Virus record (IMG/VR): IMGVR_UViG_2778261058_000016
Location: 1 to 20,834 of that record
Strand: one strand, 5' to 3'
DNA from: a virus
Lineage: Duplodnaviria; Heunggongvirae; Uroviricota; Caudoviricetes
DNA length: 20,834 bases
Shown in pieces: positions 1 through 20,834 of this stretch. Made by a program: the position numbers and the translations under genes. Within the stretch, counting starts at the first letter, position 1. Each line of letters begins with the position of its first letter. The notes beneath the pieces were generated by a model that saw nothing but the letters and a program-made list of their open reading frames with translations, had not been told where the DNA came from and did not search any database.

Positions 1-1182
1 GTGCTCACAGATACTAAGTTACGAAAGTCGCTCGGAAAGCGCAGGGAGAAGGTTGAGGTTCTCTCTGATTCAAACGGACTGAATGTGCGTCTAAGCATAA
101 CCGGTTCTATCACATTCTTCTATCGGTATCGCTGGCTGGGCAAGCCTGTGCAGTTAAGCATTGGTGACTATCCAACTATTTCACTCTCTCAGGCGAGAGA
201 CAGAAGACAGCAGTTCAGAGCGTGGTTGAGCGAGGGGTATGATCCCCGGCAGAAAGTGCTGGTGGAGAAGGCTGAAAGAATAGAAGCGCTGACAGTCGAT
301 GAGGCCTATGAGTACTGGGTGAAGCATTACTGTATCCCGGAGGGGCTCATTAAAATTGATGCGAACGGTAAAAGCTTCAAAAAGCACATTAGCCCGCGGC
401 TAGGGAAGGCTATTGTGGACCAGACAGTGAAGGCGAACTGGCTTGAGGTTTTCGATGCAATGGGGAGGAGTGTCATATCAGGTGAGATGCTGTCTCTGAC
501 CAAGCGTGCTTTCCGGTTCTGCCACAACAGGGGAGTAATCAAAACCAATCCACTGGAGTCGTTACGAAAATCGGATGTCGGTATAGCAGCGAAGATGAAG
601 GAGAGGCGGCTTTCAGATAGTGAGATAAAGCAGGTGTGGGATACTCTTTTCTCTCTGCCTCCCTCTCAACAACTGGTAATCAGGTTCATGATTCTAACCG
701 GATGCCGCGCCGCAGAAATAAGAAAGTCGAGATGGGAGTGGTTCGATTTCAAAGAAAGGTCCTGGACTGTGCCGGCAGAGGATTATAAGACCGGTAAAAC
801 TATTCGTCGTGCGTTGCCGGATACTGCGGTCAGGCTTCTGCAAGAGCATCAACGCGGATCAATCACTAAGCACGTTCTGACTCCAGCACAGTTCCGGGAT
901 AAAGAAGATGTCCCACCTGGGCAGACGCTTGTCTCGACGTACTCAATGCAGGTAGTGCGTAAGAACGGAATGAAGGAGTGGTCATTACATGATTTGCGGA
1001 GAACGGTGGCCACGCGCCTGTCCGAGCTTGGCGCTCCACCACACGTTATAGAAAAGTTGCTCGGACATCAGATGGGCGGGGTTATGGCCAGATACAACCT
1101 TCATGACTATATGGACGATCAGCATGAATGGCTGGATATCTGGCAGAAGCATTTGCAGGAGATTATTGGGTATCCCCTTTAG
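1..1182 (+). CDS. int: Tyrosine recombinase / phage integrase, P4-type, with N-terminal arm-binding region; may lack 1-2 codons at the window edge
   Basis: 393-aa ORF from GTG at position 1. N-terminus LTDTKLRK...FFYRYRW resembles the arm-binding domain of P4-like integrases. C-terminus has HDLRRTVATRL (H-x-x-R) and a downstream Tyr in MARYNLHDY, consistent with the catalytic residues of tyrosine recombinases. Confidence 0.85.
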   Translation: MLTDTKLRKSLGKRREKVEVLSDSNGLNVRLSITGSITFFYRYRWLGKPVQLSIGDYPTISLSQARDRRQQFRAWLSEGYDPRQKVLVEKAERIEALTVDEAYEYWVKHYCIPEGLIKIDANGKSFKKHISPRLGKAIVDQTVKANWLEVFDAMGRSVISGEMLSLTKRAFRFCHNRGVIKTNPLESLRKSDVGIAAKMKERRLSDSEIKQVWDTLFSLPPSQQLVIRFMILTGCRAAEIRKSRWEWFDFKERSWTVPAEDYKTGKTIRRALPDTAVRLLQEHQRGSITKHVLTPAQFRDKEDVPPGQTLVSTYSMQVVRKNGMKEWSLHDLRRTVATRLSELGAPPHVIEKLLGHQMGGVMARYNLHDYMDDQHEWLDIWQKHLQEIIGYPL

Positions 1183-1378
1183 CAAAGTTGACCTTGTCTT
1201 CCCATGACTTGATTTCTGACTCACGCCAGCGCTTCGGATTTCCGGGGATGGTTGGTTTCGGGAATGGGCATGAAAAGCTGGATGGCATACGTGCGGGAGT
1301 GCTCCAGAAATAGAGCGTGCTGCGCGATATTTTGTAGCGCGCAAGGATTTCGCTTGTAACCAGGATGCTGTCATTCAT
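1163..1378 (-). CDS. AlpA-family (Phage_AlpA / MerR-like HTH) regulator or excisionase-like protein, 71 aa
   Basis: I retranslated the minus strand: MNDSILVTSEILARYKISRSTLYFWSTPARMPSSFSCPFPKPTIPGNPKRWRESEIKSWEDKVNFAKGDTQ. The pattern SRSTLY...FPKP...WRESEI..W matches AlpA/Vis-type proteins. ATG at 1378 sits 6 nt after a GGAGA Shine-Dalgarno; the ORF track's 101-aa version (to 1468) is probably an upstream over-extension. The 3' end overlaps the integrase 3' end by 20 nt (convergent). Confidence 0.65.
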   Translation of the reverse strand: MNDSILVTSEILARYKISRSTLYFWSTPARMPSSFSCPFPKPTIPGNPKRWRESEIKSWEDKVNFAKGDTQ

Positions 1379-1387
1379 CTGTGATCT

Positions 1388-1419
1388 CCAGAAAAAGAGC
1401 GCCCGGCGCGGGGCCGGGC
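1388..1419 (-). terminator. GC-rich hairpin (7-bp stem GCCCGGC / GCCGGGC, 5-nt loop) followed on the minus strand by CTCTTTTTCT; intrinsic terminator and/or the sub-terminal hairpin of the IS right end
   Basis: Perfect inverted repeat at 1401..1419 with an A-run at 1392..1396 on the plus strand, which is a T-run downstream of the hairpin on the minus strand. It lies about 85 nt past the tnpB stop and immediately before the alpA-like RBS. Confidence 0.45.
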
Positions 1420-1620
1420 AAAATGGGGGATAACTGAGCAGTGCTTTCGCACCCAATAGCCAGCTCATAACTGGCTATCAGTTGCTTGACATCCTCCCCG
1501 TCCTAAAGGAAGGGGATTCCTACAGCTAGACGGCGATGCCCCGCCGCGAGAATGTTCTTTGCGGCGTTCACGTCGCGGTCATGAGTGGTTCCGCACTCAC
1601 AACAAGTCCATTCTCTTATT
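1391..1620 (-). ncRNA. Putative omega-RNA (TnpB guide RNA) overlapping the tnpB 3' end and the IS right end
   Basis: In IS200/IS605 elements the omega-RNA is encoded across the 3' end of tnpB and the right end. This region holds three hairpins, one spanning the tnpB stop at about 1496..1515, plus those at 1456..1478 and 1401..1419. Extent is a guess and no covariance model was applied. Confidence 0.25.
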
Positions 1621-2594
1621 CGCAGGCCTGCTCTACCTTTCGGACTGTTGGCGGAGATAGCCCCGCAACACGAACAAGCTTGGGTGGAATAACTTTCGTT
1701 GACCACTTCAAACACCACTGACCGCGCAATCGCTTTATATTCCAGTTGTGTTTTGAGCATGAACCAGCCAGCGTCCAAAATGCTTTTTGCCATTTTGGTT
1801 TTAACCAGTTTCTTACTGCTCGCGTCGCCTACGAATATTGCCGCATGGCTGTTAACCAGCGCCGTGCTGTACTTGTGCAGGGCATCTTTGCGGCGGTTCT
1901 TAATTTTGGCGTGTATGGCGCGTACACGGGCTTTTTTGTTTGCACGCTGTGCCTTTCCTAATGCAGGCTCCAGATCTCGATAGAATCTACCGGCAATCAG
2001 CGGATCACCTTCTGACGGGGTGGCGTAGTCTTTCAGCCCTAAATCGATACCCACGGCGGAAGTGGCCGTTGATGGGACAGTTTCGACCTCTACGCAAACA
2101 TTGAAGTACCAGCGTCCACGGCTGTCTTCTGAAAAGCTTCCAGCACGGAATTTAAATCCTCCCAAGCCGTAGCTATCCCAGACATTAAAAATCCTGCCAG
2201 CGAACCGCACCGCGCCATTTTTCCAGACAGCGCTGCCTATTTTAAACGGCACCCAACCCAACGAACGGCGAGATCCCCCACTGACTCGCCAGCGTAAGCG
2301 AGAGCGTTTAAATTGCTTCCGTGCCTTGCCGTGAATTGCTGCGATTTCCTGTACGGTATGGCTGGGGATGGTATACCCGCGCTCTTTTCGCTCTTTAAGG
2401 AGCGGTTTCTGAACATCAAACGCCGATAGCCATTGCGGTTTTTGCGCGCCAAAAAAGCCAGCGTTGCCGTATGCTGCGCTGGTTATCTCGTTTGCCAGAT
2501 TAAAGATCTGATTGACCTCAAAGGCCATCTGCCGCAAAACGGCTGCGTGCTTGTCTTTAATTCGGACAGATAGTGTTTTGATCTGAATGTTCAT
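1503..2594 (-). CDS. tnpB: TnpB, RNA-guided endonuclease of the IS200/IS605 family (RuvC-like domain plus zinc finger)
   Basis: About 363 aa from the ATG at 2594 (MNIQIKTLSV...). RuvC-I-like GIDLGLKDY, and a C-terminal CSCCGAIS...CCECGTTHDRDVNAAKNI (CxxC...CxxC zinc finger with RuvC-III HDRD/NAAKNI). The ORF track's start at 2663 adds 23 unlikely N-terminal residues. Confidence 0.85.
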   Translation of the reverse strand: MNIQIKTLSVRIKDKHAAVLRQMAFEVNQIFNLANEITSAAYGNAGFFGAQKPQWLSAFDVQKPLLKERKERGYTIPSHTVQEIAAIHGKARKQFKRSRLRWRVSGGSRRSLGWVPFKIGSAVWKNGAVRFAGRIFNVWDSYGLGGFKFRAGSFSEDSRGRWYFNVCVEVETVPSTATSAVGIDLGLKDYATPSEGDPLIAGRFYRDLEPALGKAQRANKKARVRAIHAKIKNRRKDALHKYSTALVNSHAAIFVGDASSKKLVKTKMAKSILDAGWFMLKTQLEYKAIARSVVFEVVNESYSTQACSCCGAISANSPKGRAGLRIREWTCCECGTTHDRDVNAAKNILAAGHRRLAVGIPFL

Positions 2595-2684
2595 GGTCGT
2601 ATGTACATATAATGTGTTGATGTTCAGTTGATCGTCGTTATTTGGCGGGATGTCACCCGCCACACGGCGATGCGCTGATGCTGT

Positions 2685-2954
2685 TTACTTCCGCCAGGCG
2701 AAGCTAATTGGCTCCGGCGTAATCCACAGGTGGCGCATGTTCGCCACGTTCACCACATCATAATCCCGCGGGTAAATCTCCACGGCATCCCGATCCCCAT
2801 AGCCAACGGCTGACTTTATCTCCTGCAATGCATCCCAACTGATGCCATCCTTCCACCGGCCAGAGCTGCCAATGCTGGTGGTGTTCACCGTCAGGCGAAT
2901 AACACCGTTCTCTTCCTGAAACTCCTGAACAAGAAAGTAAGAGTTAGCCCACAC
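2685..2954 (-). CDS. Hypothetical protein, 89 aa, leftward, immediately upstream of the IS left end
   Basis: Protein-like composition (MWANSYFLVQEFQEENGVIRLTVNT...EIYPRDYDVVNVANMRHLWITPEPISFAWRK) and no conflicting gene on the other strand. The start is a GTG and the frame stays open upstream without start codons, so this may be the C-terminal remnant of a longer truncated gene. No family recognised. Confidence 0.35.
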   Translation of the reverse strand: MWANSYFLVQEFQEENGVIRLTVNTTSIGSSGRWKDGISWDALQEIKSAVGYGDRDAVEIYPRDYDVVNVANMRHLWITPEPISFAWRK

Positions 2955-3010
2955 GTTGCTCCGCTTGGGGTCGTGGCATCGTACCGGCCATTGCGATTCC
3001 GGTAACCGCG

Positions 3011-3949: not shown

Positions 3950-4465
3950 ATGAGCAGTGTAACTCCGGCAGAAGTCGGTTCATTCTTTTTATCTCTAGTT
4001 GTTCCAATCACCACTGGGGTTGTGGCAGCAGGATTTACTGCATTTTTCGCTCTGAATCGATTTTACAAAGAAAAATGGTGGGAGAAGAAACATGCTGCGT
4101 ACAATCAATTAATTGATAAATTATTTGAAATCAAAGCAATTTATTCCCACGCCTCAGATTTTTACGAGGCTGAATACAATGCTGGTATGTATGGTAGGCC
4201 GCCGCCGAAAGGGTCTGTTGATTGGAATACATTCCATCAAATAAAAGCGCAACTCCATCGGTTTTATGTGCTCGCACCAATCTCTCTAAGCAATAATACA
4301 AGGGATTTGCTCAATAATTTCTTCAAGCAGGACGCTGATTCCGATCATAGTGTTTACGAAGAGGGTTACCCAGATTTTGTGGCATACAATGATATGACGA
4401 TTGCGACCCAGCAACTTATTGATGCCATTGTCTTGGACGCTGAAAAAGAACTTAAATTTAAATAA
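3950..4465 (+). CDS. Membrane-anchored hypothetical protein, 171 aa (N-terminal TM helix plus soluble domain); AT-rich moron
   Basis: RBS AAGGGTGAG upstream of ATG 3950. N-terminal hydrophobic helix FFLSLVVPITTGVVAAGFTAFFAL followed by a charged/aromatic soluble region. Visibly lower GC than the flanking phage genes, and followed by its own terminator. No family recognised. Confidence 0.6.
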   Translation: MSSVTPAEVGSFFLSLVVPITTGVVAAGFTAFFALNRFYKEKWWEKKHAAYNQLIDKLFEIKAIYSHASDFYEAEYNAGMYGRPPPKGSVDWNTFHQIKAQLHRFYVLAPISLSNNTRDLLNNFFKQDADSDHSVYEEGYPDFVAYNDMTIATQQLIDAIVLDAEKELKFK

Positions 4466-11309: not shown

Positions 11310-11942
11310 ATGGAAAGACAGTACGCAGTACTTCTTGACGCAGGGTTCTTGCGCCGAAAATTAGGTACTCAGGCAGCACCAATGACAGCTCAAAATGTCG
11401 AAGATTTAGTTAATAAAATTAAAGCACGAGCTGAGTTATTAGGGATGCGGTTGTATCGTGTGTTTTATTACGACGCTGAGCCTTTCACGGGTACTAAGAC
11501 ACATCCTATATCCAACGCTGTTATTAACTTTGGCGCTACACAAATGGCCATTGATTGTAATACATTGTTAGATGAGCTTAAGGTCAAGCCTTTTTTTGCT
11601 GTGCGCCTAGGGGAACTCAATTTTAGAGGGTGGAAGGTTTCTGATGCTGCTCTTCAGTCAGGTGCAGGAGGGACGGCAACAATTAATGCTCATAATGTTT
11701 CTCCCAATCTTCAGCAGAAAGGTGTGGATATGAGGATCGCATTAGATATCTCATCTATGACTTTAAAAAACCAAGCAGACGTTTTTTGCTTGGTAACAGG
11801 TGACTCAGATTTTGCACCCATCATCAAATTTGCGAGATCTGAAGGAAAGCAAGTATTCACTTATACTCTCGGTCATAGAGTCAAACCATCTTTGCCTATT
11901 CATTCTGACCTCCATATCCCTGAAACGTACGCTAATTTGTAA
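11310..11942 (+). CDS. NYN-domain (PIN-like, LabA/YacP-type) putative ribonuclease, 210 aa; AT-rich moron
   Basis: N-terminal first-strand motif YAVLLDAGFL (acidic residue in the first beta strand), central KGVDMRIALDI, and CLVTGDSDFAPIIKFARSEGKQVF (GDSDF), matching conserved acidic motifs of NYN/PIN-like nucleases. Visibly much lower GC than the flanking chaperone and tape-measure genes, with its own promoter-like element and a downstream terminator. Confidence 0.75.
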   Translation: MERQYAVLLDAGFLRRKLGTQAAPMTAQNVEDLVNKIKARAELLGMRLYRVFYYDAEPFTGTKTHPISNAVINFGATQMAIDCNTLLDELKVKPFFAVRLGELNFRGWKVSDAALQSGAGGTATINAHNVSPNLQQKGVDMRIALDISSMTLKNQADVFCLVTGDSDFAPIIKFARSEGKQVFTYTLGHRVKPSLPIHSDLHIPETYANL

Positions 11943-11999: not shown

Positions 12000-14930
12000 A
12001 TGGCAGGTGAGAAAAACGCCGGTAGCATCGTTTATGAAGTCAGCGCCAATATTGAGCCGCTGCTGCAGGGCGGTAAACAGGCCATTGATGCTCTGGATAA
12101 ACTGGATGCTGCAGCCCAGCAGTCCGGGAAGGGAATGGATAACCTCGACCAGAGCACGTCTCAAACCGGATCCGCTTTTACTGAACTGGCTGGTTATGCC
12201 AATTCCATGGATAACCAGCTGCGCAAGCTGAACACCAACGTGAGCGGAATTGCCCGCGCTATGGAAGAGGCCCGCAGCGGTACCGGCGGCGCGAGCAGTG
12301 AATTCAGTCGCGCAGAATCAATCATCGAGGCGCTGGGTAACCAGCTGGCTGTGCTGGACGAAGCGCAGGAGAATGGCGCGCGTAGTGCCGCGGTTCTGGC
12401 AGCCCAGCTCCGAGCCGGGTCAAAAGCTACAGACGAAGAGAAGCAGAAGATCGGCGAATTGACTGGGCGGCTCTTCGACATGAAAGGCGCTGCTGATACC
12501 TCGATGGGCAGTAATAAAGGCTGGAAGGCCAGCATGCAGCAGGCTGGTTATCAGGTTCAGGATTTCATAGTACAGGTGCAGGGCGGCCAGTCTGCGCTGG
12601 TGGCGTTCGCTCAGCAGGGGTCTCAACTCGCTGGTGCATTCGGTCCCGGCGGCGCAGTCGTTGGTGCCATAATCGCGCTTGGTTCGGTGCTGGCTGGCGT
12701 GCTGATTACTTCGCTGAATGGCGGCAAGAATGCCATGGATGCGCTGAAAGACGCAGCTGAAGCGATGGATAAGGTTATCACCATTTCATCGCAAGGCGTG
12801 GCCGCGCTTTCCGACAAGTATGCTGCCCTGGCGCGCGTAAATGCCGACGTGGCTACTTTGCTGAGAAATCAGGCACTGCTCGAGTATAACCAGGCGATCT
12901 CAAAGATTCCTAAAGCCATTAGTGACGCGTCTGATGCTTTCATTACGTTAGGCGATCGCGCACTGGCGGCTGTTGGCGGTGCGTCTCCAAGCATCAAAAA
13001 GTTCAACGATGAGCTTTCTGCGCTTGGCGTTACCACAAATGACTGGAGCCAGGCCATTCAACAGGCCAACAGTCAGGGGCAATATGCCTCTGGCATTGTG
13101 AACTCTTTATCTTCAACGGTCAGCACGCTTTCTTCACGCCTCGGCATCAGCAAGCAATCAGCGTTTGATCTTGCAAGAGAGTTATCAGACCTGAGCAACA
13201 ACCCGTCGCCTGAAGCACTTCAGGAACTGGCGAAAAAGCTCCAGGAAATGAAGTCCTCCTCCAAAGATGGGCAGTCAGCCATTGCTGAGCTGGCTGGTAA
13301 ACTTGTCGATCTGGCAAGAGAGGCAGCCAATGCGAAGATCAATGTAGACAGCCTGAATAAGTCCACGGATAACCTTACCGCCGGACAGAAGAACCTGATC
13401 AAACAGTCCGAGCGCAACCTGGCACTCTCGAAGTTGCAGGGCGAGGCTCGCGCACGGTTGCAGGCGCAATACGCTGCCGAAGATGCTGGATTTGCGAAGG
13501 ATGATCCGCATGCCAAGCAGATGGAAGATGATGCTGCCGCTACGTACAAAAATACGGAAGAGCAAAAGAAGCTTAAATCGGAGCAGAAAAAAGGAGCATC
13601 TCAGGCAGAAACCATTGCTCAGAAGCTGGCGAACCTGAAACAGCAGTCAGAACTCGCTGCCGATTCAACGAATAAGCTGAGCCGAGAGCAGGCTATTCTG
13701 AATGCGCAGCAGTCGCTCGGGAAAGGTGCCACCAAAGAGCAGATAGCACTTGCCGGTCAGTATGCGGCCAAAAAATGGGACACCGCCAACGCCATTAAGG
13801 CTCAGGCTGCAGCGGAGAAACTTCTTCCTGAGGCCCGCGAGAACGCCAGCTACAGGCAGGATGTTGAGGACCTGAATACCGCTCTGGCTGCGAAGAAAAT
13901 CAGTCAGGAGCAGTTCAATCAGACATCCGAGCGACTGGAAGCAACTCACCAGGCCAACCTTGCGAAAATCCGTGCCGATCAGGCTGTCAGCCCACTGCAG
14001 GAAGCTGCTGGCGGTGTGGATCCGGTGCAGCAACTGGCGAATGAAAATGCCCGAAAACTCGCGCTTATTCAGGCTTACGAGCAGCAGGGGATTATTACTC
14101 ACCAGAACGCGCTTATGCTGCGCGCATCAGCTGACAGGGAGTACGAGCAGGCTCGCATCGCGGCGCAATGGGAGATTTTCCGTAACCAGAGCGCAGGCAA
14201 TGAAGCGCTGGCGGCGTCCTTTGATGCACTGGCCGGTAATGCGTCCAATGCCTTAACCGGCATCATCACCGGGAGCATGTCAGCTTCCGATGCTCTGCGC
14301 TCGATCGGGAATACCGTACTGAACAGCCTCATCAACACCTTCGTCCAGATGGGCGTTGAGTGGGTTAAATCGGCAATCATGGGGCAGACGGCCACCACTG
14401 CAGCGGTTGCAGCATCTACCACGGCGCAGGCAGCAGGCATTGCCACTACCACGGCGACGTCTACCGCGGCGGCGGCGGCCACAACTGCAGCATGGACGCC
14501 AGCGGCCATCATGTCCTCCATTGCGTCATTCGGTGGAGCGGTGGCGATCGGCATCGGAGCTATGGCTGGCATCCTGGCACTGTCAGGAAAGCGTAAGAAC
14601 GGCGGGCCGGTTAGTGCAAGCGGAATGTATCAGGTCGGCGAAGGTGGAATGCCGGAGATTTACCAGGCCAGCACCGGTAAGCAGTACATGATACCGGGCG
14701 ACAACGGCAAGGTGATCAGCAACAAGGAAATGACTGCCGGAGGCGGTGGCGGGGTAATTTTGAATATCAACAATTACTCTTCAGCGTCGGTCGATGCACA
14801 GGCTACGCAGGGCAGTGACGGCACCTGGACTATCGATACATTCATCGCTGACATGAATAATGGTGGACCAGCAAGCCAGGCTATTACCAGCAATTTGAAC
14901 GTTAAGCGCACGCCAAGGGGGCAGGGCTGA
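12000..14930 (+). CDS. Tail tape measure protein
   Basis: 976 aa, RBS GGAGAA. Long Ala/Gln/Glu-rich coiled-coil body, C-terminal hydrophobic Ala/Thr/Gly-rich segments (TTAAVAASTTAQAAGIATTTATSTAAAAATTAAW...AIGIGAMAGILALSG), and position after the chaperone gene. Confidence 0.85.
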   Translation: MAGEKNAGSIVYEVSANIEPLLQGGKQAIDALDKLDAAAQQSGKGMDNLDQSTSQTGSAFTELAGYANSMDNQLRKLNTNVSGIARAMEEARSGTGGASSEFSRAESIIEALGNQLAVLDEAQENGARSAAVLAAQLRAGSKATDEEKQKIGELTGRLFDMKGAADTSMGSNKGWKASMQQAGYQVQDFIVQVQGGQSALVAFAQQGSQLAGAFGPGGAVVGAIIALGSVLAGVLITSLNGGKNAMDALKDAAEAMDKVITISSQGVAALSDKYAALARVNADVATLLRNQALLEYNQAISKIPKAISDASDAFITLGDRALAAVGGASPSIKKFNDELSALGVTTNDWSQAIQQANSQGQYASGIVNSLSSTVSTLSSRLGISKQSAFDLARELSDLSNNPSPEALQELAKKLQEMKSSSKDGQSAIAELAGKLVDLAREAANAKINVDSLNKSTDNLTAGQKNLIKQSERNLALSKLQGEARARLQAQYAAEDAGFAKDDPHAKQMEDDAAATYKNTEEQKKLKSEQKKGASQAETIAQKLANLKQQSELAADSTNKLSREQAILNAQQSLGKGATKEQIALAGQYAAKKWDTANAIKAQAAAEKLLPEARENASYRQDVEDLNTALAAKKISQEQFNQTSERLEATHQANLAKIRADQAVSPLQEAAGGVDPVQQLANENARKLALIQAYEQQGIITHQNALMLRASADREYEQARIAAQWEIFRNQSAGNEALAASFDALAGNASNALTGIITGSMSASDALRSIGNTVLNSLINTFVQMGVEWVKSAIMGQTATTAAVAASTTAQAAGIATTTATSTAAAAATTAAWTPAAIMSSIASFGGAVAIGIGAMAGILALSGKRKNGGPVSASGMYQVGEGGMPEIYQASTGKQYMIPGDNGKVISNKEMTAGGGGGVILNINNYSSASVDAQATQGSDGTWTIDTFIADMNNGGPASQAITSNLNVKRTPRGQG

Positions 14931-15427
14931 TGCCAATTATCGACTATCCCGACTGGCTTCCGCTGGCGCAGAAGGCCAGCAAAAATATGACGCTCGATAC
15001 CGGGTTCCAGACCGACCAGCCAGCGGTCGGCCCGGCTATCTTCCAGAACCTTACTCACGACCTGAAAGTGACATGGTCCCTGACATGGATCTTCACTCTG
15101 GACCAGGAGCGCGCTTTCCAGCAGTGGCTGCGCAGCCCGAACTATCTCAACCGGGGCCTGAACTGGTTCCGGATGAATATCAACCTTGGCGGTAGCGGTC
15201 TGCAGCTGCAGGAGCTTCACTTCACGCAGATGCCGGTGCAAACCAGTATTGACGGCGGTGTGGTGACCTGGACAGGGACAGTTATTGCGAACCACCTCTA
15301 CAACGCCGACGACGAGTTCGACGACATCATTGTAGAGCTGCCGCCACCGTGGGATTCGTGGCTGGATATCGTGGTTACGGGTTATCCGGACAATAGAGAC
15401 CCAGAATCACTTCCGAGGGTGCCGTAA
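14930..15427 (+). CDS. Minor tail protein (lambda M-like position)
   Basis: 165 aa, ATG overlaps the tape-measure stop (TGATG). First gene after the tape measure. Confidence 0.5.
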   Translation: MPIIDYPDWLPLAQKASKNMTLDTGFQTDQPAVGPAIFQNLTHDLKVTWSLTWIFTLDQERAFQQWLRSPNYLNRGLNWFRMNINLGGSGLQLQELHFTQMPVQTSIDGGVVTWTGTVIANHLYNADDEFDDIIVELPPPWDSWLDIVVTGYPDNRDPESLPRVP

Positions 15428-15897: not shown

Positions 15898-16276
15898 TTT
15901 TGTTCGGAAGGTGATCGGCGTGCCATGGGCTAACCGGGCCTGTTCGTTCGAGAAGTTGGATTGCTGGGGGCTGGTGGTGCTGTATTACCGGCACGTTCTC
16001 GGCATTGAACTGCACCAGACGCCGGACTACGAAGCCGGTGAGGATTTCTTCACCTGCTATCAGGGAGACGTCGTTTTCTGGCGCAAGCTCGATAAACCGG
16101 TCGATGGCGGGATATTCGTCGGGTACCGCGGCGCGCAACCTGCGCATGTTGGCCTGGTACTGAACCGGCAGGCGCTGCACTCGCGCGGCGAGAACGGAAG
16201 CGTGCGCATGGACTCGTTGCTGGTCATTCAGCGGGCATTCACCAAAGTGGAGTTTTTCGAATATGGCGTTGATTGA
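15860..16276 (+). CDS. Tail-associated NlpC/P60-family cysteine peptidase (lambda gpK-like)
   Basis: 138 aa. FVRKVIGVPWANRACSFEKLDCWGLVVLYY carries the Cys-containing DCWGLV motif, with a downstream His in AHVGLVL, typical of NlpC/P60 catalytic residues. Overlaps the upstream gene by 38 nt. Confidence 0.7.
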   Translation: MTQRNIPACSTSDFVRKVIGVPWANRACSFEKLDCWGLVVLYYRHVLGIELHQTPDYEAGEDFFTCYQGDVVFWRKLDKPVDGGIFVGYRGAQPAHVGLVLNRQALHSRGENGSVRMDSLLVIQRAFTKVEFFEYGVD

Positions 16277-17081
16277 GCTTCAGCGTTTCCCGGGGACGCC
16301 AAAAGAACGCTACAGGGTGCCAAACGGCACCCTTTTTTATGACTGGCTGGTGGCAAATGACGCTACCTTTCACCGCGATCTGCTGATTGTCCGGAACGGC
16401 GTAAAGCTTTGTGATGATGACGAGCTGGCGTTTGAGCTGAGCGAACTGGACAACATCCAGATTTTCGACCAGCCAAAGGGCATTGTCAGTGACATCCTGA
16501 GCCCGATTTTCAAAGTTGTCGGGTCTGTATTTTCTTTTCTGGCGCCTAAGCCGGCAATCGCAAATACCGGTGGTAACACTGTCGACTCGCCAAACAATAG
16601 CCTGACCGGTCAGACAAACACCGCGCGCGTCTATAAAGCCAAACCGGACATATACGGGCAGGTGCGTTCTTTCCCAGACCTGATTCAGGAATCACTGTTT
16701 GAGTACATCAGCACTGGCGTGCGAGACGGTGGCAAGAAGTACGTGACGGAATGGATGTGTATCGGGATTGGCAAGTACAATTATGAGTCTGTGCGCTACT
16801 CAGAATCGAGCCTTGGAAGCATGGCCGGAGCCGAATACCAGTTCATTCAGCCTGGCGAGGTAATCCCGTCGATTAACGAAGGCTACAGCTTCGATGACGT
16901 CGATGGGCAGGAAGTCCCGGGTGCGAACCAGGGCGAATCGTTCCCTGTTGAAACCGCTACAGCCAACACAGTGGTCAGCGGCACGTATGCCGGCGGTCAG
17001 ATAGCGGTGAAAATCGTTAAACAGGCGGAATTTGACTATTTCATGGCCTGGTATTGCCGCATGCCGTCTCGTTCGACATAA
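16263..17081 (+). CDS. Tail assembly protein (lambda gpI-like N-terminal region), 272 aa
   Basis: Position after the NlpC/P60 gene. Internal hydrophobic patch ILSPIFKVVGSVFSFLAP followed by a polar N/T/S-rich segment resembles gpI-type proteins. The C-terminal about 100 aa may belong to the downstream J-like protein (see findings). Confidence 0.45.
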   Translation: MALIELQRFPGTPKERYRVPNGTLFYDWLVANDATFHRDLLIVRNGVKLCDDDELAFELSELDNIQIFDQPKGIVSDILSPIFKVVGSVFSFLAPKPAIANTGGNTVDSPNNSLTGQTNTARVYKAKPDIYGQVRSFPDLIQESLFEYISTGVRDGGKKYVTEWMCIGIGKYNYESVRYSESSLGSMAGAEYQFIQPGEVIPSINEGYSFDDVDGQEVPGANQGESFPVETATANTVVSGTYAGGQIAVKIVKQAEFDYFMAWYCRMPSRST

Positions 17082-18739
17082 ACGTCACTTACGCGACTGC
17101 CTCTGGTTCGGTAACTACTGACGCCACGTTCTCCGGCACGCTTGTTTCAGCTGTAGAGACAAACGACGGCGCGGTGATAAACCCAGTCCGCTGGTACACC
17201 TTCACCATGGGCGACCTGGATGGCCCGCCAGATATCCCCGCTACCGCAACGATCAACACGACGAAGTTCGTGCTGAACGACAACGAAGCGCTGGTCGTAG
17301 GTCCGTTCTTTTCTCCGGTTGAATCAACGCAGTTGTGGATCCATACCCAAAGTAGCCTCGGTCCGAAGAAGCAGACCAACTGGAAGGTGGTGCTTTGGAA
17401 AATTGATGACGACTACAACATGATCCCTGGCACTCAGCAGACGCTGGTGTTCAAGCAGACAACCTGGCACAAGCAGGATAGCGAGACATTCTATCGGACC
17501 GACAAGATAGTGCCGACTGGCGGCTTCGGGAAGTACGCCATTAACCTGCAGCGCACCGATAACTCTGGTGATGCGTCGATACTCAAACTTGAGGAAATCC
17601 ACGCCGTAAACGTGCGAACAAACGTTGTCCATCCAACCGATACGCTGGTGCGCGTGAAGGTTAGGGCTACAGAGAACGCGCTGGGCAGCCGCGACCGCAA
17701 ATACAACGCCCTGGTAACGCGGCACACCATCACGTACGATCTGGACACGCAGACGGTAGATTACACGCTGCGTCCGTCGCGTTCATTCGCTGATGCAGTG
17801 GCTCACACATGGCTGATTATGGGTGAGCAGCCCGTAAGCAGCATTGACCTGTATGGGTTGTATTCGATCGCCGAAAGCCTGCCTGATGAGCGCCTTGGTT
17901 ACTTCGACTATACCTTTGATGATGAGAACGACTCTCTGGGAGACCGCGTGCAGGCGATCTGCAATGCGGCATCTGTGGTGGCGTACTGGGACGACGGTGT
18001 GCTCACGTTCACCAGGGACCAGAAAGTTGGCTACCCGGCGGCCGTATTCAACCGGGCCAACATGAAGACGGACGAGTACAAAATGACGTACGAGGCTACT
18101 CTTCCAGGCGGTTACGACGGCGTGCAGGTGTCCTACGTTCACCCGACCACGAACAACAAGACGTACATCAACTACCGTGTTCTGAACGGCGTTATCGTCG
18201 AGCAGGAAGCGGAGAACCCGAATAAGATCGAAATTGTCGGCTTCCGTAACGAGTATCAGGCGCGCGAACGCGCGCTGCGCGAAACGAAGCGCCTAATCTA
18301 CTCCCGGGTGAAGATGAACGCAAAAGTGTTTGAGGACGGTATTATCCAGGTTGGCAGCGTCATTCAGATGCCTGATATCTACGACAGCAACCAGCAACAG
18401 GGTTACATCACCGGCCGCGCCGGGAATAACTTCGATACCAGCGAGCCGCTCACCTTTTCCGGGGATATGTACGTGCTGGTGACCGACAGCCTGGGTAATC
18501 CGACGCTGCGCTATCCGGCGACGGCCCGCGGTGACACGAAGTACGGCTTCACCGCGGCAATACCCGACATTCAGCCCAACATATGGAACGGAGACACTGT
18601 ACAGCTCCCGTCGCGCTACCTCATTGCGACAGTGGAGGAACTGGACAGTCAGCTATGGACGGTCAACAGCATCAAACCGAACACAGATAACACGGTATCT
18701 CTGACCGTCGCGGAATACAGCGACGCAATCTACCAATAA
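17054..18739 (+). CDS. Tail tip / host-specificity protein, lambda gpJ-like central region, 561 aa
   Basis: Long beta-rich protein in the J position. The ORF-track start is a TTG inside the upstream gene; the first in-frame ATG is about 50 codons later and no candidate start has a good RBS, so the true start is uncertain. Confidence 0.5.
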   Translation: MPHAVSFDINVTYATASGSVTTDATFSGTLVSAVETNDGAVINPVRWYTFTMGDLDGPPDIPATATINTTKFVLNDNEALVVGPFFSPVESTQLWIHTQSSLGPKKQTNWKVVLWKIDDDYNMIPGTQQTLVFKQTTWHKQDSETFYRTDKIVPTGGFGKYAINLQRTDNSGDASILKLEEIHAVNVRTNVVHPTDTLVRVKVRATENALGSRDRKYNALVTRHTITYDLDTQTVDYTLRPSRSFADAVAHTWLIMGEQPVSSIDLYGLYSIAESLPDERLGYFDYTFDDENDSLGDRVQAICNAASVVAYWDDGVLTFTRDQKVGYPAAVFNRANMKTDEYKMTYEATLPGGYDGVQVSYVHPTTNNKTYINYRVLNGVIVEQEAENPNKIEIVGFRNEYQARERALRETKRLIYSRVKMNAKVFEDGIIQVGSVIQMPDIYDSNQQQGYITGRAGNNFDTSEPLTFSGDMYVLVTDSLGNPTLRYPATARGDTKYGFTAAIPDIQPNIWNGDTVQLPSRYLIATVEELDSQLWTVNSIKPNTDNTVSLTVAEYSDAIYQ

Positions 18740-18761
18740 GAACCGTCCCCGACCAACCAAA

Positions 18762-18786
18762 CCCGGCCACCGTGCCGGGTTTTTTT
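18762..18786 (+). terminator. Rho-independent terminator (CCCGGC-caccgt-GCCGGG plus 7 T)
   Basis: Perfect 6-bp GC stem followed by TTTTTTT, 23 nt after the TAA ending the J-like gene. Confidence 0.6.
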
Positions 18787-18797
18787 ATGGAATCAAT

Positions 18798-20834
18798 ATG
18801 GCTACGCAACCTACCAATTTGTCTGTCCCAAGCGAATCACCACGCGATCTGAAGTTTAATGCTGGTAAAATTGACGAGTTTGTAACGTCGCTGGTCAACA
18901 CTTATGTCGACCGTTTCGGTAATGAGCACTACACCATTGAAGGCCTGCGCTGGCTTGCGCAGCAGGCGATAGCCCAGTATGGGTGGATACCTGTGGAATC
19001 CTTTCAGGCGGGTGCCACTATCTCGCTGCCTAACCAGATCTTAAAAGATACATCTACTGGTGAATATTACAGATGGGATGGGGCACTTCCTAAGGTTGTT
19101 CCTGCTGGCTCAACGCCATCCTCAACGGGAGGAACAGGTGTTGGGGCTTGGTTAAGTGTCGGTGATTCAGCGTTGAGGAGCATGCTCGGAGCCAACGATG
19201 GGGAAAAGTTAGTAGGTGAGTGTCCAACTATTGCTGCGCTTCGCTCAATAGAGCCCACATATGATAAACAGCGAATTACTCTTCGCGAACACACAGCAGG
19301 AACCAGGCTTGGTGGAGGGCAATTCCGTGCCGTTCTTTCTGGATCTTCCTATACCGACAATAATGGCACGATAATCAAGACAGCAGGCGGGGCGGCGTGG
19401 TTACGAATTAATGCGGACGTAACAAACCCCCTTATGTTTGGCGCGCTTGGGGATGGCGTCACAAACGACGTGGTTGCTATTAATAGGGCTATTGCAAGCG
19501 CATCTAAGACGGACCTTCTTGGCAGAACATACCTTATATCTGGTGGTGCAATTGAGGTCTATAACACCAATCCTTGCTCTGTTTACAGCGGTAAGATAAT
19601 TGAGCCAGCTGTCAACAACAGTACAATGATGAGAGTATCAGGGGCAGGGAAAACTATTACCGACATCATTTTTGACGGAACTACAGGATTAACGAGTAGA
19701 GGTATCATTTTTGCTTCTGGCAGTTCTACCTCTAAGGTATCAGGATGTCAGTTCCTTAATCTTAAAATGCCTGGGATAGGTGTAAGTGGTGATTATACCA
19801 ACAACATCTTTTGCAGCGACATTACCATCGATAGAAATTTATTTAACAACTGTGGTAACTCAGGGGTAAATTACGACAAGAATACCATTGTTATGGATGG
19901 TGCTTTCCAATGCACAATTTCAAATAACAGAGCGACAAATTGTAATTGGGGTGTTATTTTTAGAAAGCCTTATACATACCCCGGTCTTACTGAAACTTAC
20001 TGCCTATATAATAGGGTGGTAGGTAACTATTTTTCAGCGAAAAGTGGATACCCTTATAACCAGTGCATTAGCGCGCAAAGTCAGAGGCACTTTGAAGCAT
20101 CTGGTAACTCTATAGAAGGCTTCCTTGGTAACGCTATCGACAACCAAAGGTGTGATTTTAGTCGCATAGTCAATAACAGGATAAACTCTGGGGATGATGG
20201 CATATTCCTTGGTGATCTGAACTTCAGGGGGCACGTTGTATCTAATAATGTGATTACTGGCTGTGCAAGGGGTATCCGTGTTTATGGGCTTGCAGCTGCG
20301 TCAGAAACTGATTTTAAAAATCAAGTAATGGCAGACTTGGTTATTACTGGTAATAGCATACATGATAGTTCATTATATGGGATCTATATTTACAGGACGG
20401 AGCCGACTGATACATTTAGCGGATTTAATATATCTAACAATGTTGTGGATAATTCAGGTAGTAGAACAATTACTACTTTGGCTCAGGCTATATTAATAAC
20501 AGGTTTATCTAATGGTGTGGTTAGCGATAATATTATTAGATACGCCAGGCAGGAAGGGCTCAGGTTTGAAAATTGTTATTCGATAAATGCAATGGGAAAC
20601 AACATATCTGGCCACGATGTAAGCAATACTGGCACGTATGGAGTTTACATTGATGTGAATTGTCGAGGCGTTATTTTGCGTAACACCAATATCACAGGAG
20701 GATCAGCAACAGGTGGAGCTGTCAGAGAGACCGGAGTAAACAATACAGTTACAGGCACTCGCTGGAATGCAGTAGCGTCTGGAGTAAACTCAACAGGCAC
20801 AGGAACAGTTGTGGCTGACAACGTACCATTCTAA
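18798..20834 (+). CDS. Tailspike / tail fibre with right-handed parallel beta-helix (pectate-lyase-like) domain; probable polysaccharide depolymerase
   Basis: 678 aa ending at TAA 20832..20834. GC-rich N-terminal about 80 aa, then an AT-rich body full of Asn/Gly/Ser/Thr-rich repeats typical of beta-helix rungs (NNRINSGDDGIFLGD, ITGNSIHDSSLYGIYIY, SNNVVDNSGSRTI, SDNIIRYARQEGLRFEN). Last gene of the tail module. Confidence 0.65.
   Translation: MATQPTNLSVPSESPRDLKFNAGKIDEFVTSLVNTYVDRFGNEHYTIEGLRWLAQQAIAQYGWIPVESFQAGATISLPNQILKDTSTGEYYRWDGALPKVVPAGSTPSSTGGTGVGAWLSVGDSALRSMLGANDGEKLVGECPTIAALRSIEPTYDKQRITLREHTAGTRLGGGQFRAVLSGSSYTDNNGTIIKTAGGAAWLRINADVTNPLMFGALGDGVTNDVVAINRAIASASKTDLLGRTYLISGGAIEVYNTNPCSVYSGKIIEPAVNNSTMMRVSGAGKTITDIIFDGTTGLTSRGIIFASGSSTSKVSGCQFLNLKMPGIGVSGDYTNNIFCSDITIDRNLFNNCGNSGVNYDKNTIVMDGAFQCTISNNRATNCNWGVIFRKPYTYPGLTETYCLYNRVVGNYFSAKSGYPYNQCISAQSQRHFEASGNSIEGFLGNAIDNQRCDFSRIVNNRINSGDDGIFLGDLNFRGHVVSNNVITGCARGIRVYGLAAASETDFKNQVMADLVITGNSIHDSSLYGIYIYRTEPTDTFSGFNISNNVVDNSGSRTITTLAQAILITGLSNGVVSDNIIRYARQEGLRFENCYSINAMGNNISGHDVSNTGTYGVYIDVNCRGVILRNTNITGGSATGGAVRETGVNNTVTGTRWNAVASGVNSTGTGTVVADNVPF

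What the first reader, a model, noticed from the sequence alone, without database searches (positions are those of the whole stretch)
18798..20834. Mosaic tailspike: GC-rich conserved N-terminal anchor fused to an AT-rich beta-helix depolymerase-like domain
Base composition drops sharply about 250 nt into the gene (around 19040), and the downstream part encodes repetitive Asn/Gly/Ser-rich beta-helix rungs. This is the pattern of a horizontally swapped receptor-binding or polysaccharide-degrading module grafted onto a conserved virion-attachment domain. The enzymatic specificity (capsule or O-antigen type) would be dictated by the acquired domain and may be novel.
Basis: partly seen in the sequence, partly recalled or inferred. 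Interest (0 to 1): 0.45.

Follow-up and report, generated by a model that had tools for sequence, protein, structure and literature searches.

The report
Mosaic prophage tailspike, swapped sugar-cutting domain
This is an ordinary but clear modular phage tailspike gene: a tail-attachment end typical of its phage group is joined to an AT-rich beta-helix domain that is traded, with a neighbouring sugar-modifying gene, between unrelated Enterobacter and E. coli prophages.

Summary
The ORF 18798-20834 (678 aa) is real and mosaic. Total GC stays near 0.51 until about 19460-19530, then falls to 0.40, against 0.54 for the rest of the window.

The protein has four parts:
- aa 1-65: Sf11 gp13-like anchor.
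- aa 67-123: D1 "Tail_spike_N" head.
- aa ~124-205: neck and D3' module, as in CBA120 TSP2.

The N-terminal 248 aa hit 625 phage records. The C-terminal 430 aa hit only four, weakly.

Junctions map to domain borders. A sibling Enterobacter kobei prophage shares DNA up to nt 19459, then carries a different helix followed by gtrABC. Three podovirus-like elements share DNA from nt 19191 through the helix and through a convergent Acyl_transf_3 gene just beyond the window.

The best reading is a surface-polysaccharide (probably O-antigen) tailspike that is exchanged together with a receptor-modifying gene, as in P22, Sf6 and BTP1. Substrate and chemistry are untested.

In this window the prophage is a deletion remnant: portal, terminase, lysis and replication genes are missing, and the baseplate hub gene is frameshifted.

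This is a new member of a known kind, of low to moderate interest.

The parts
18798..20834 (+). Complete tailspike ORF, 678 aa. The stop codon is the last triplet of the window.
   Evidence: The same protein is indexed in 80 blocks of the public assembly collection, and all 24 contigs read carry it. PHROG tail fibre/spike families match.
18798..18992 (+). aa 1-65: virion anchor, predicted alpha-helices, homologous to the N-terminal helices of Shigella siphophage Sf11 tailspike gp13 that bind the distal tail protein. GC 0.50, GC3 0.54.
   Evidence: PDB 9occ_G aligns at aa 1-136 with E = 7e-46, 57% identity. R16 and K19 are kept. In Sf11, residues 4-59 form a helical bundle with the DTP adaptor helix (PMC12724387). 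The model has helices at 22-61 with low pLDDT. Megablast identity to CobraSix/ENT1-type phages ends at window 18944-18978.
18996..19166 (+). aa 67-123: D1 head module (Pfam Tail_spike_N). The GC3 change-point (codon 81, nt 19041) lies inside it.
   Evidence: PF18668, E = 1.4e-20, 73.6 bits against a cut-off of 25. PDB hits are CBA120 TSP1/3/4 and others. DNA identity to Cronobacter phage ENT47670 ends at window 19166.
19167..19409 (+). aa ~124-204: neck helix plus D3' module, an open-face beta-sandwich that precedes the helix as in CBA120 TSP2. It is conserved across all anchor types, and both mapped recombination junctions flank it.
   Evidence: 5w6p/6w4q TSP2 residues 256-~360 align to aa 131-~235, E = 1e-35. 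D3' is defined as TSP2 residues 270-328 (PMC7506556). The model has H145-150 plus four strands at 159-203 with pLDDT 83-91. Family-wide invariant columns begin at L130.
19191..19191 (+). Junction A (codon ~131): 84-88% nt identity to three podovirus-like elements starts here.
   Evidence: blastn of L001/L003 position 6394 against L010, L013 and L014. All three alignments start at the same base and run through the acyltransferase gene.
19459..19459 (+). Junction B (codon ~220): 85% nt identity to the sibling E. kobei prophage (L007, a different helix followed by gtrABC) ends here. It coincides with the total-GC change-point (19477-19526).
19416..20831 (+). aa ~207-678: capping helices (211-234) and a right-handed parallel beta-helix body (strands 237-665) running almost to the C-terminus. 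GC 0.41, GC3 0.36. This is the presumed receptor-binding and glycan-cleaving domain.
18759..18789 (+). Terminator-like hairpin (9-bp stem, 6 G-C pairs) plus a run of seven T, ending 9 nt before the tailspike ATG. It is nearly invariant in related prophages and in the lytic phage CobraSix.
   Evidence: MFE -16.7 kcal/mol, z = -2.3. In one search, the only change within the hairpin is a single loop base.
14930..15427 (+). Distal tail protein (165 aa), the presumed docking partner of the tailspike anchor.
   Evidence: 9occ_C (Sf11 gp17) residues 1-150, E = 8.6e-64. Adaptor-helix residues E129 and E136 are kept, and E147 is Ile. Their role is described in PMC12724387.
16263..18739 (+). Baseplate hub 2 / tail-tip gene. 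It is a single 825-aa gene in relatives. Here it is split into 272 aa plus 561 aa by a 1-nt deletion (GGG to GG) at about 17045.
   Evidence: The intact copy matches 9occ_E gp14 with E = 4e-253.

Best explanation
The gene encodes a modular tailspike of an Sf11/CobraSix-like temperate siphovirus of the Enterobacter cloacae complex.

Anchor. The first ~60 residues form helices that, as a trimer, dock on an adaptor helix of the distal tail protein (window 14930-15427). By analogy with Sf11, this places six spikes around the tail tip.

Linker modules. A D1 head module, a neck helix and a D3' module then lead into the helix.

Receptor domain. A long right-handed beta-helix binds a host surface polysaccharide and most probably cleaves it. 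The most likely target is the O-antigen.

Origin of the mosaic. The gene was assembled by recombination at module borders. The anchor belongs to the phage backbone. The D3' module is a conserved linker. The AT-rich helix travels as a cassette with a convergently transcribed membrane acyltransferase (Acyl_transf_3, GC 0.33) that lies just past the window. Other helix subtypes are followed by gtrABC instead. The inferred role of the acyltransferase is to modify the same polysaccharide in the lysogen so that the spike of this phage type no longer binds or cuts it, giving lysogenic conversion and superinfection exclusion.

Shown here: the domain architecture, the fold, the composition steps, the DNA junctions and the cassette linkage.

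Inferred: trimer formation and docking, enzymatic activity, O-antigen as substrate, and the protective role of the acyltransferase.

In this particular genome the prophage is a deletion remnant, so the spike cannot be assembled into virions without a helper.
For: - Architecture: Pfam Tail_spike_N plus Beta_helix. PDB sequence hits are Sf11 gp13 at aa 1-136 and CBA120 TSP2 at aa 128-266.
- Docking partners: the DTP matches Sf11 gp17 (E = 9e-64) and the hub matches gp14 (E = 4e-253), in the same gene order. The mechanism is described in PMC12724387.
- Mosaicism: 625 against 4 phage records for the two halves. At least five anchor types sit on one helix family.
- Junctions: nt 19191 and 19459.
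- Composition.
- Cassette linkage: the window-type helix is followed by a convergent Acyl_transf_3 gene in an Sf11-like siphovirus backbone and three podovirus-like backbones. A 55%-identical helix in an E. coli P22-like prophage is followed by an 83%-identical acyltransferase. The P0032-type helix is followed by gtrABC. A phage-like contig carrying DNA polymerase and helicase genes (no integrase seen in the stretch read) has neither.
- Precedent: a convergent tailspike and acetyltransferase pair in Salmonella prophage BTP1, in which GtrC protects the O-antigen from the prophage's own tailspike (PMC4413052).
Against: - No enzymatic or binding data exist. The fold is shared by hydrolases, lyases, epimerases and pure adhesins.
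- Catalytic residues cannot be transferred from CBA120 TSP2, because the alignment beyond aa ~235 is unreliable.
- O-antigen is inferred only from linkage with gtrABC or an acyltransferase and from homologous systems. Acyl_transf_3 enzymes also modify capsules and other glycans.
- The acyltransferase has no PHROG match and no tblastn match in 50,697 phage genomes, so it is not a close relative of Sf6 Oac or BTP1 GtrC.
- AlphaFold confidence for aa 1-139 is low, so the anchor structure rests on sequence homology to Sf11.
- In this window the prophage lacks portal and terminase genes, and the hub gene is frameshifted.
Confidence: 0.75

Rival explanations
1. The spike is a depolymerase for a capsule or exopolysaccharide (for example a K-type capsule or colanic acid) rather than for the O-antigen. 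The linked acyltransferase then modifies that polymer.
For: Many of the best structural matches are capsule depolymerases, including Klebsiella K1 and K2, Acinetobacter APK phages and Pantoea WceF. PHROG 4250 'EPS depolymerase' matches aa 120-239. Prophage acetyltransferases that convert capsules have been described in Acinetobacter (PMC13228068, title and abstract).
Against: The alternative cassette in the sibling prophage is gtrABC, which is classically an O-antigen glucosylation system. The homologous anchor system in Sf11 uses O-antigen. The PHROG and WceF matches cover only the D3'/cap region, not the helix body.
Confidence: 0.2
2. The composition step is only a by-product of the amino-acid make-up of beta-helix rungs (Asn, Ile, Ser, Thr) and says nothing about horizontal exchange.
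For: GC1 falls from 0.59 to 0.41 and GC2 from 0.53 to 0.46 at the helix. The helix is enriched in Asn and Ile. This explains why total GC drops only at about 19460-19530.
Against: GC3 is also low (0.36, against 0.64 in upstream genes) and drops earlier, at codon 81. The adjacent, unrelated acyltransferase gene is even more AT-rich at 0.33. Exchange is shown directly by DNA junctions and the module identity matrix.
Confidence: 0.05
3. The beta-helix is a non-catalytic receptor-binding fibre or adhesin that binds without cleaving.
Against: Across sequences that are 37-95% identical, a cluster of invariant acidic and basic residues lies on consecutive rungs: D448, D467, D473, H479, R491, R494, with E440 and D453 nearly invariant. 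That pattern is expected of an active-site groove. The closest sequence relatives with known function (TSP2, and the P22-like class) are enzymes.
Confidence: 0.1
4. In this genome the gene is an inert relic of a decaying prophage, with no current role beyond being a reservoir of sequence.
For: About half of the prophage is deleted, from immunity genes to the portal gene. There is also a frameshift in the hub gene.
Against: The ORF is intact and identical to copies in complete prophages. The relic status concerns this copy, not what the protein is. The gene could still be rescued by recombination with incoming relatives through the conserved flanks.
Confidence: 0.3

Closest known systems
Shigella siphophage Sf11 tailspike gp13 with DTP gp17 (PDB 9OCC; PMC12724387)
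   Same: The N-terminal 136 aa are homologous (E = 7e-46, 57% identity), with R16 and K19 kept. The tail-tip gene set and order are the same: TMP, DTP, hub 1, (NlpC/P60), hub 2, tailspike. The DTP residues 1-150, including the adaptor helix, are homologous.
   Different: The receptor domain is unrelated; Sf11 has an Sf6/P22-like body and is 585 aa. The DTP here is 165 aa and lacks Sf11's large C-terminal appendage (457 aa). One of the salt-bridge glutamates (E147) is not conserved. This element is temperate.
CBA120 (Kuttervirus) tailspike TSP2, PDB 5W6P/6W4Q (PMC7506556)
   Same: It has the same D1 head, neck helix, D3' module and beta-helix (D3) layout. The D3' and cap region is about 60-70% identical over roughly 100 residues, judged by eye from the printed alignment rather than computed.
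   Different: The helix body is only about 20-25% identical. There is no T4 gp10-like N-terminal assembly region and no large D4 beta-sandwich. The TSP2 catalytic residues (D506, E568, D571) cannot be mapped reliably.
P22 / Sf6 / BTP1 arrangement: a tailspike gene followed by a convergent O-antigen-modifying conversion gene at the prophage end (BTP1: PMC4413052)
   Same: The tailspike is followed directly by a convergent Acyl_transf_3 gene (or gtrABC in the sibling prophage) at the right end of the prophage. The P22-like E. coli member of the same helix family (L015) has exactly tailspike, acyltransferase, int, host.
   Different: The backbone here is a siphovirus with an Sf11-type anchor. The acyltransferase has no detectable match in sequenced phages. 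No functional data exist.
Enterobacter phage vB_EclS_CobraSix (Cobrasixvirus) and Cronobacter phage ENT47670
   Same: The tail module is colinear, with 78-83% nt identity up to codons ~50-123 of the tailspike gene. The intergenic hairpin is conserved.
   Different: Their spike bodies are different (54% identity over aa 1-245 for CobraSix, none beyond). CobraSix was isolated from sewage as a free phage rather than found as a prophage, and no conversion gene follows its spike.

Membership tests
Phage tailspike with right-handed parallel beta-helix receptor domain (Pfam Beta_helix PF13229 / Phage_tail_beta PF27114) | Right-handed parallel beta-helix body | tested here: met
Phage tailspike with right-handed parallel beta-helix receptor domain (Pfam Beta_helix PF13229 / Phage_tail_beta PF27114) | N-terminal virion-attachment module, and a gene located in the tail module | tested here: met
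   It is the last gene of the tail cluster.
Phage tailspike with right-handed parallel beta-helix receptor domain (Pfam Beta_helix PF13229 / Phage_tail_beta PF27114) | Homotrimer | not testable with these tools
   Only a monomer could be modelled.
Phage tailspike with right-handed parallel beta-helix receptor domain (Pfam Beta_helix PF13229 / Phage_tail_beta PF27114) | Cleaves or deacetylates a host surface polysaccharide | not testable with these tools
   This needs purified protein. The only support here is invariant acidic residues on adjacent rungs.
Sf11-type siphophage tailspike docking (gp13 helices on the DTP adaptor helix) | Homology of the first ~60 residues to gp13, with the contact residues R16 and K19 | tested here: met
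   alignment; 57% identity over the first 60 aa.
Sf11-type siphophage tailspike docking (gp13 helices on the DTP adaptor helix) | DTP with the adaptor helix and its acidic contact residues | tested here: inconclusive
   The DTP is homologous over residues 1-150 (E = 9e-64). E129 and E136 are kept, E147 is Ile, E152 was not aligned, and three prolines (138-140) fall inside the region.
CBA120 TSP2-like architecture | D1 head, neck helix and D3' module before the helix | tested here: met
CBA120 TSP2-like architecture | C-terminal D4 beta-sandwich and a gp10-like N-terminal assembly region | tested here: not met
   The protein ends at aa 678 with helix-type strands up to 665. The N-terminus is Sf11-like, not gp10-like.
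   17.5 bits against a cut-off of 27, covering only aa 213-238, the cap motif FGAxGDG.
Tailspike plus lysogenic-conversion pair (P22 gtrABC, Sf6 oac, BTP1 gtrC) | A glycan-modifying gene directly downstream and convergent, at the prophage end | tested here: met
   L001-L005 and L009 carry Acyl_transf_3 14 nt after the stop codon. L007 carries gtrABC. This lies outside the window.
Tailspike plus lysogenic-conversion pair (P22 gtrABC, Sf6 oac, BTP1 gtrC) | The modification blocks the cognate tailspike | not testable with these tools
   This requires genetics and biochemistry.

The most novel reading that the evidence does not exclude
The unit of exchange may not be the receptor domain alone. It may be a self-contained 2.7-kb 'serotype cassette': the D3' linker, the AT-rich beta-helix and a convergent acyltransferase that ends in a shared hairpin. 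This cassette moves intact between siphovirus-like, T7-tail-fibre-type and P22-like prophages of Enterobacter and E. coli. Each transfer would then deliver both a new receptor specificity and the matching self-protection (exclusion) function. The helix would have an uncharacterised glycan specificity and chemistry.
Probability: 0.4. Interest if true: 0.4.

Novelty: new member of a known kind. Interest (0 to 1): 0.22.

Why it matters
Tailspike modularity and its pairing with O-antigen-converting genes are textbook for P22-like phages, so nothing conceptually new is shown.

Three practical points follow:
- The junctions map to base resolution at domain borders (nt 19191 and 19459). These are natural splice points for engineering Sf11/CobraSix-type Enterobacter phages with new host ranges.
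- The helix family is small (37 clusters in 1.84 billion) and has no close solved structure. It is therefore an uncharacterised candidate enzyme against surface glycans of the Enterobacter cloacae complex, an ESKAPE group.
- The helix and the acyltransferase transfer together across phage morphotypes. This is a tidy example of attack and self-protection functions travelling as one unit.

Tried and rejected
- Two scans of species-representative genomes, one with the helix and one with alignment A1, found no relative apart from a weak Chitinophaga D3'-like hit. They gave no host-species census.
- tblastn and PHROG searches with the acyltransferase found nothing in phages. I could not tie it to Oac or GtrC lineages.
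- I tried to transfer the TSP2 catalytic residues (D506, E568, D571). The phmmer alignment beyond aa ~235 has low posterior probability, so I rejected this.
- I considered GH28-like motifs (IDN, GDDG, RGH, RGIR at aa 446-494) from memory. The spacing does not match GH28 and no GH28 Pfam hit appeared, so it remains only a lead.
- I considered that the upstream integrase marked a separate element. Comparison with complete prophages showed that it is the normal left arm, joined to the head genes by a deletion.
- The first Python run failed on file names and was repeated.
Full report
**1. The observation**

The ORF 18798-20834 (+) is a complete 678-aa gene whose stop codon ends the window. Quantitatively, the gene has GC 0.441 against 0.541 for the preceding 18.8 kb. 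The best single change-point is at 19477 for the whole window and 19526 within the gene, with 0.508 to the left and 0.403 to the right. Within-gene permutation gives p of about 0.0015.

The 200-nt windows stay at 0.505-0.52 until about 19500. It is, however, exactly where third-position GC falls. The GC3 change-point is codon 81, at nt 19041. GC3 goes from about 0.55-0.65 to 0.28-0.45, while upstream genes average 0.64. The second step, at about 19460-19530, also involves GC1 and GC2. Part of it therefore reflects the Asn/Gly/Ser/Ile-rich rungs: N 11.4%, G 11.4%, S 9.2%.

**2. Anatomy of the protein**

- aa 1-65 are homologous to the N-terminus of Shigella siphophage Sf11 tailspike gp13. PDB 9OCC aligns over aa 1-136 with E = 7e-46 and 57% identity.
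- aa 67-123 are the Tail_spike_N (D1) module, at 73.6 bits.
- aa ~124-205 match CBA120 TSP2 residues 256-~330, with E = 1e-35. In the TSP2 paper's nomenclature this is the neck helix plus the D3' open-face sandwich (PMC7506556). The model shows the expected helix plus four strands.
- There is no separate D4 domain.
- PF12708 (formerly Pectate_lyase_3) matches only the 26-residue cap motif and falls below threshold.

**3. Context in the window**

The window carries a tail module colinear with Sf11 and with Enterobacter phage CobraSix: tape measure, a 165-aa distal tail protein, hub 1, NlpC/P60, an 825-aa hub 2 and then the tailspike.

The distal tail protein matches Sf11 gp17 residues 1-150 (E = 9e-64), and hub 2 matches gp14 (E = 4e-253). 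In Sf11, gp13 residues 4-59 of the three chains bundle with one adaptor helix of gp17, and six trimers decorate the tail tip (PMC12724387). R16 and K19 of the spike and E129 and E136 of the DTP are conserved here, but E147 is not. Docking is therefore inferred by homology and has not been shown.

**4. Mosaicism**

tblastn of aa 1-248 finds 625 phage records across many genera. aa 249-678 finds four, all Enterobacter phages, at no more than 32% identity. Megablast identity to the closest phages stops inside the gene: at 18944 for the ENT1 type, 18978 for CobraSix and 19166 for ENT47670.

In the large protein database the helix occurs at 94-95% identity on three different N-termini. At 52-63% identity it occurs on further ones. 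These include the P22 head-binding domain (PF09008) in E. coli and the T7 tail-fibre N-terminal domain (PF03906).

The module matrix summarises the pattern (percent identity to the window protein):

| Protein | Anchor | D1 | D3' | Helix |
|---|---|---|---|---|
| P0032 | 92 | 100 | 93 | 53 |
| P0001 | 15 | 15 | 91 | 95 |
| P0002 | 26 | 23 | 89 | 95 |
| P0034 / P0035 | 15 | 15 | 89 | 52 |

So the anchor plus D1, the D3' module and the helix assort independently. D3' is the conserved linker.

**5. DNA junctions and the cassette**

The window is identical to a Logan contig (L003). Sibling copies show what lies beyond the window: a convergent 345-aa Acyl_transf_3 gene begins 14 nt after the stop codon, followed by a UmuD-like gene and then host genes.

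Against the sibling E. kobei prophage L007, 85% nt identity runs from the tail genes to window 19459 and then collapses. That prophage has a different helix followed by gtrABC.

Against three podovirus-like elements (L010, L013, L014), 84-88% identity starts at the same base, window 19191. It runs through the helix and through the acyltransferase gene.

GC values are 0.555 for the tail genes, 0.51 for spike aa 1-226, 0.405 for the helix, 0.328 for the acyltransferase and 0.54 for umuDC.

An E. coli P22-like prophage (L015) has a 55%-identical helix followed by an 83%-identical acyltransferase, then int and host genes. A phage-like contig carrying DNA polymerase and helicase genes (L016) has no conversion gene.

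The exchanged unit is therefore the D3' module, the helix and a glycan-modifying gene.

**6. Mechanism**

The best-supported reading is a trimeric spike that docks on the distal tail protein and whose beta-helix binds and probably cleaves a surface polysaccharide.

O-antigen is favoured for three reasons:
- the helix is linked to gtrABC or an acyltransferase;
- Sf11 uses O-antigen;
- in the BTP1 precedent, a convergent acetyltransferase protects the O-antigen from the prophage's own tailspike (PMC4413052).

Candidate active-site residues, by invariance only, are D448, D467, D473, H479, R491 and R494, plus the nearly invariant E440 and D453. Hydrolase and lyase chemistry cannot be told apart from the fold.

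**7. Novelty**

The exhaustive HMMER search finds only 37 clusters (50% identity) related to the helix among 1.84 billion, and no close solved structure exists. However, the identical protein is indexed in 80 blocks of the public assembly collection, and the biology matches known P22, Sf6, BTP1 and Sf11 paradigms. This is a new member of a known kind.

**8. State of this copy**

Window 1-3008 is the prophage left arm: int, a TnpB, DUF7694 and part of a DUF4222 gene. It is 99.9% identical to complete prophages. From 3001 onward the window is identical to the Mu-F head gene and what follows. The two alignments overlap by 8 bp at the junction. Immunity, replication, lysis, terminase and portal genes are missing.

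The hub 2 gene carries a 1-nt deletion at about 17045, relative to five near-identical copies. The spike ORF itself is intact.

Noticed in passing
window 2955-3010 (junction at about 3001-3008): The prophage in this window is a deletion remnant. The left arm (int, TnpB, DUF7694, a truncated DUF4222 gene) is joined to the Mu-F-like head gene, and the two alignments overlap by 8 bp at the join. Complete relatives carry about 25 kb there: immunity, replication, nin/Q, lysis, terminase and portal genes.
   Followed up: yes
window ~17045 (genes 16263-17081 and 17054-18739): A single-base deletion (GGG to GG) splits the 825-aa baseplate hub 2 / tail-tip gene, which is intact in five near-identical copies. 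It is either a real pseudogene or an assembly error.
   Followed up: partly
window 1503-2663 (-): A TnpB-like gene (OrfB_IS605 plus the Cas12f1-like TNB domain) sits between the integrase and DUF7694. It is a constant part of this prophage's left arm, and the identical protein is indexed in 793 blocks of the public assembly collection. No TnpA is adjacent. An associated guide RNA was not looked for.
   Followed up: no
window 11310-11942 (+): An AT-rich ORF (GC 0.42, GC3 0.35) with a NYN ribonuclease-like domain is inserted between the DUF6246 tail gene and the tape-measure gene. Relatives have nothing there, or a different small ORF. It looks like a moron, possibly defence-related.
   Followed up: partly
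window 3950-4465 (+): A second AT-rich ORF (GC 0.40, 171 aa, PHROG 17948, unknown function, no Pfam hit) lies between the Mu-F-like gene and the 462-aa head gene. It is conserved in the complete relatives.
   Followed up: no
window 18759-18789 (+): A strong terminator-like hairpin plus a run of seven T ends 9 nt before the tailspike start codon. It is almost invariant, with only one loop base varying, in CobraSix and in E. kobei prophages whose flanking genes are only about 83-85% identical. It may attenuate spike expression or act as a conserved recombination anchor.
   Followed up: partly
L003 8035-8063 (just beyond the window end): The tailspike stop codon and a run of seven A are followed by the hairpin GAGCGCC-TTAGT-GGCGCTC, whose loop contains the stop codon of the convergent acyltransferase gene. 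Read on the minus strand, this is an intrinsic terminator for the acyltransferase. It is shared by all cassette copies examined.
   Followed up: partly
L007 and L008 (CP133814.1, 2821723-2835750 and 2869089-2883116): One E. kobei chromosome carries two copies of the same tail module, tailspike and gtrABC about 47 kb apart. This suggests tandem or duplicated prophages.
   Followed up: no
P0037 (337 aa, from a 4.76-Mb chromosome): In another genome the same tailspike is truncated after residue ~331 and ends in unrelated residues (…GVSGDLILPT). This suggests disruption by an insertion or a frameshift.
   Followed up: no
L009 1520-3089: In a sibling prophage, two HNH/NUMOD4 homing-endonuclease-like genes are inserted among the minor tail genes. 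They are absent from the window.
   Followed up: no
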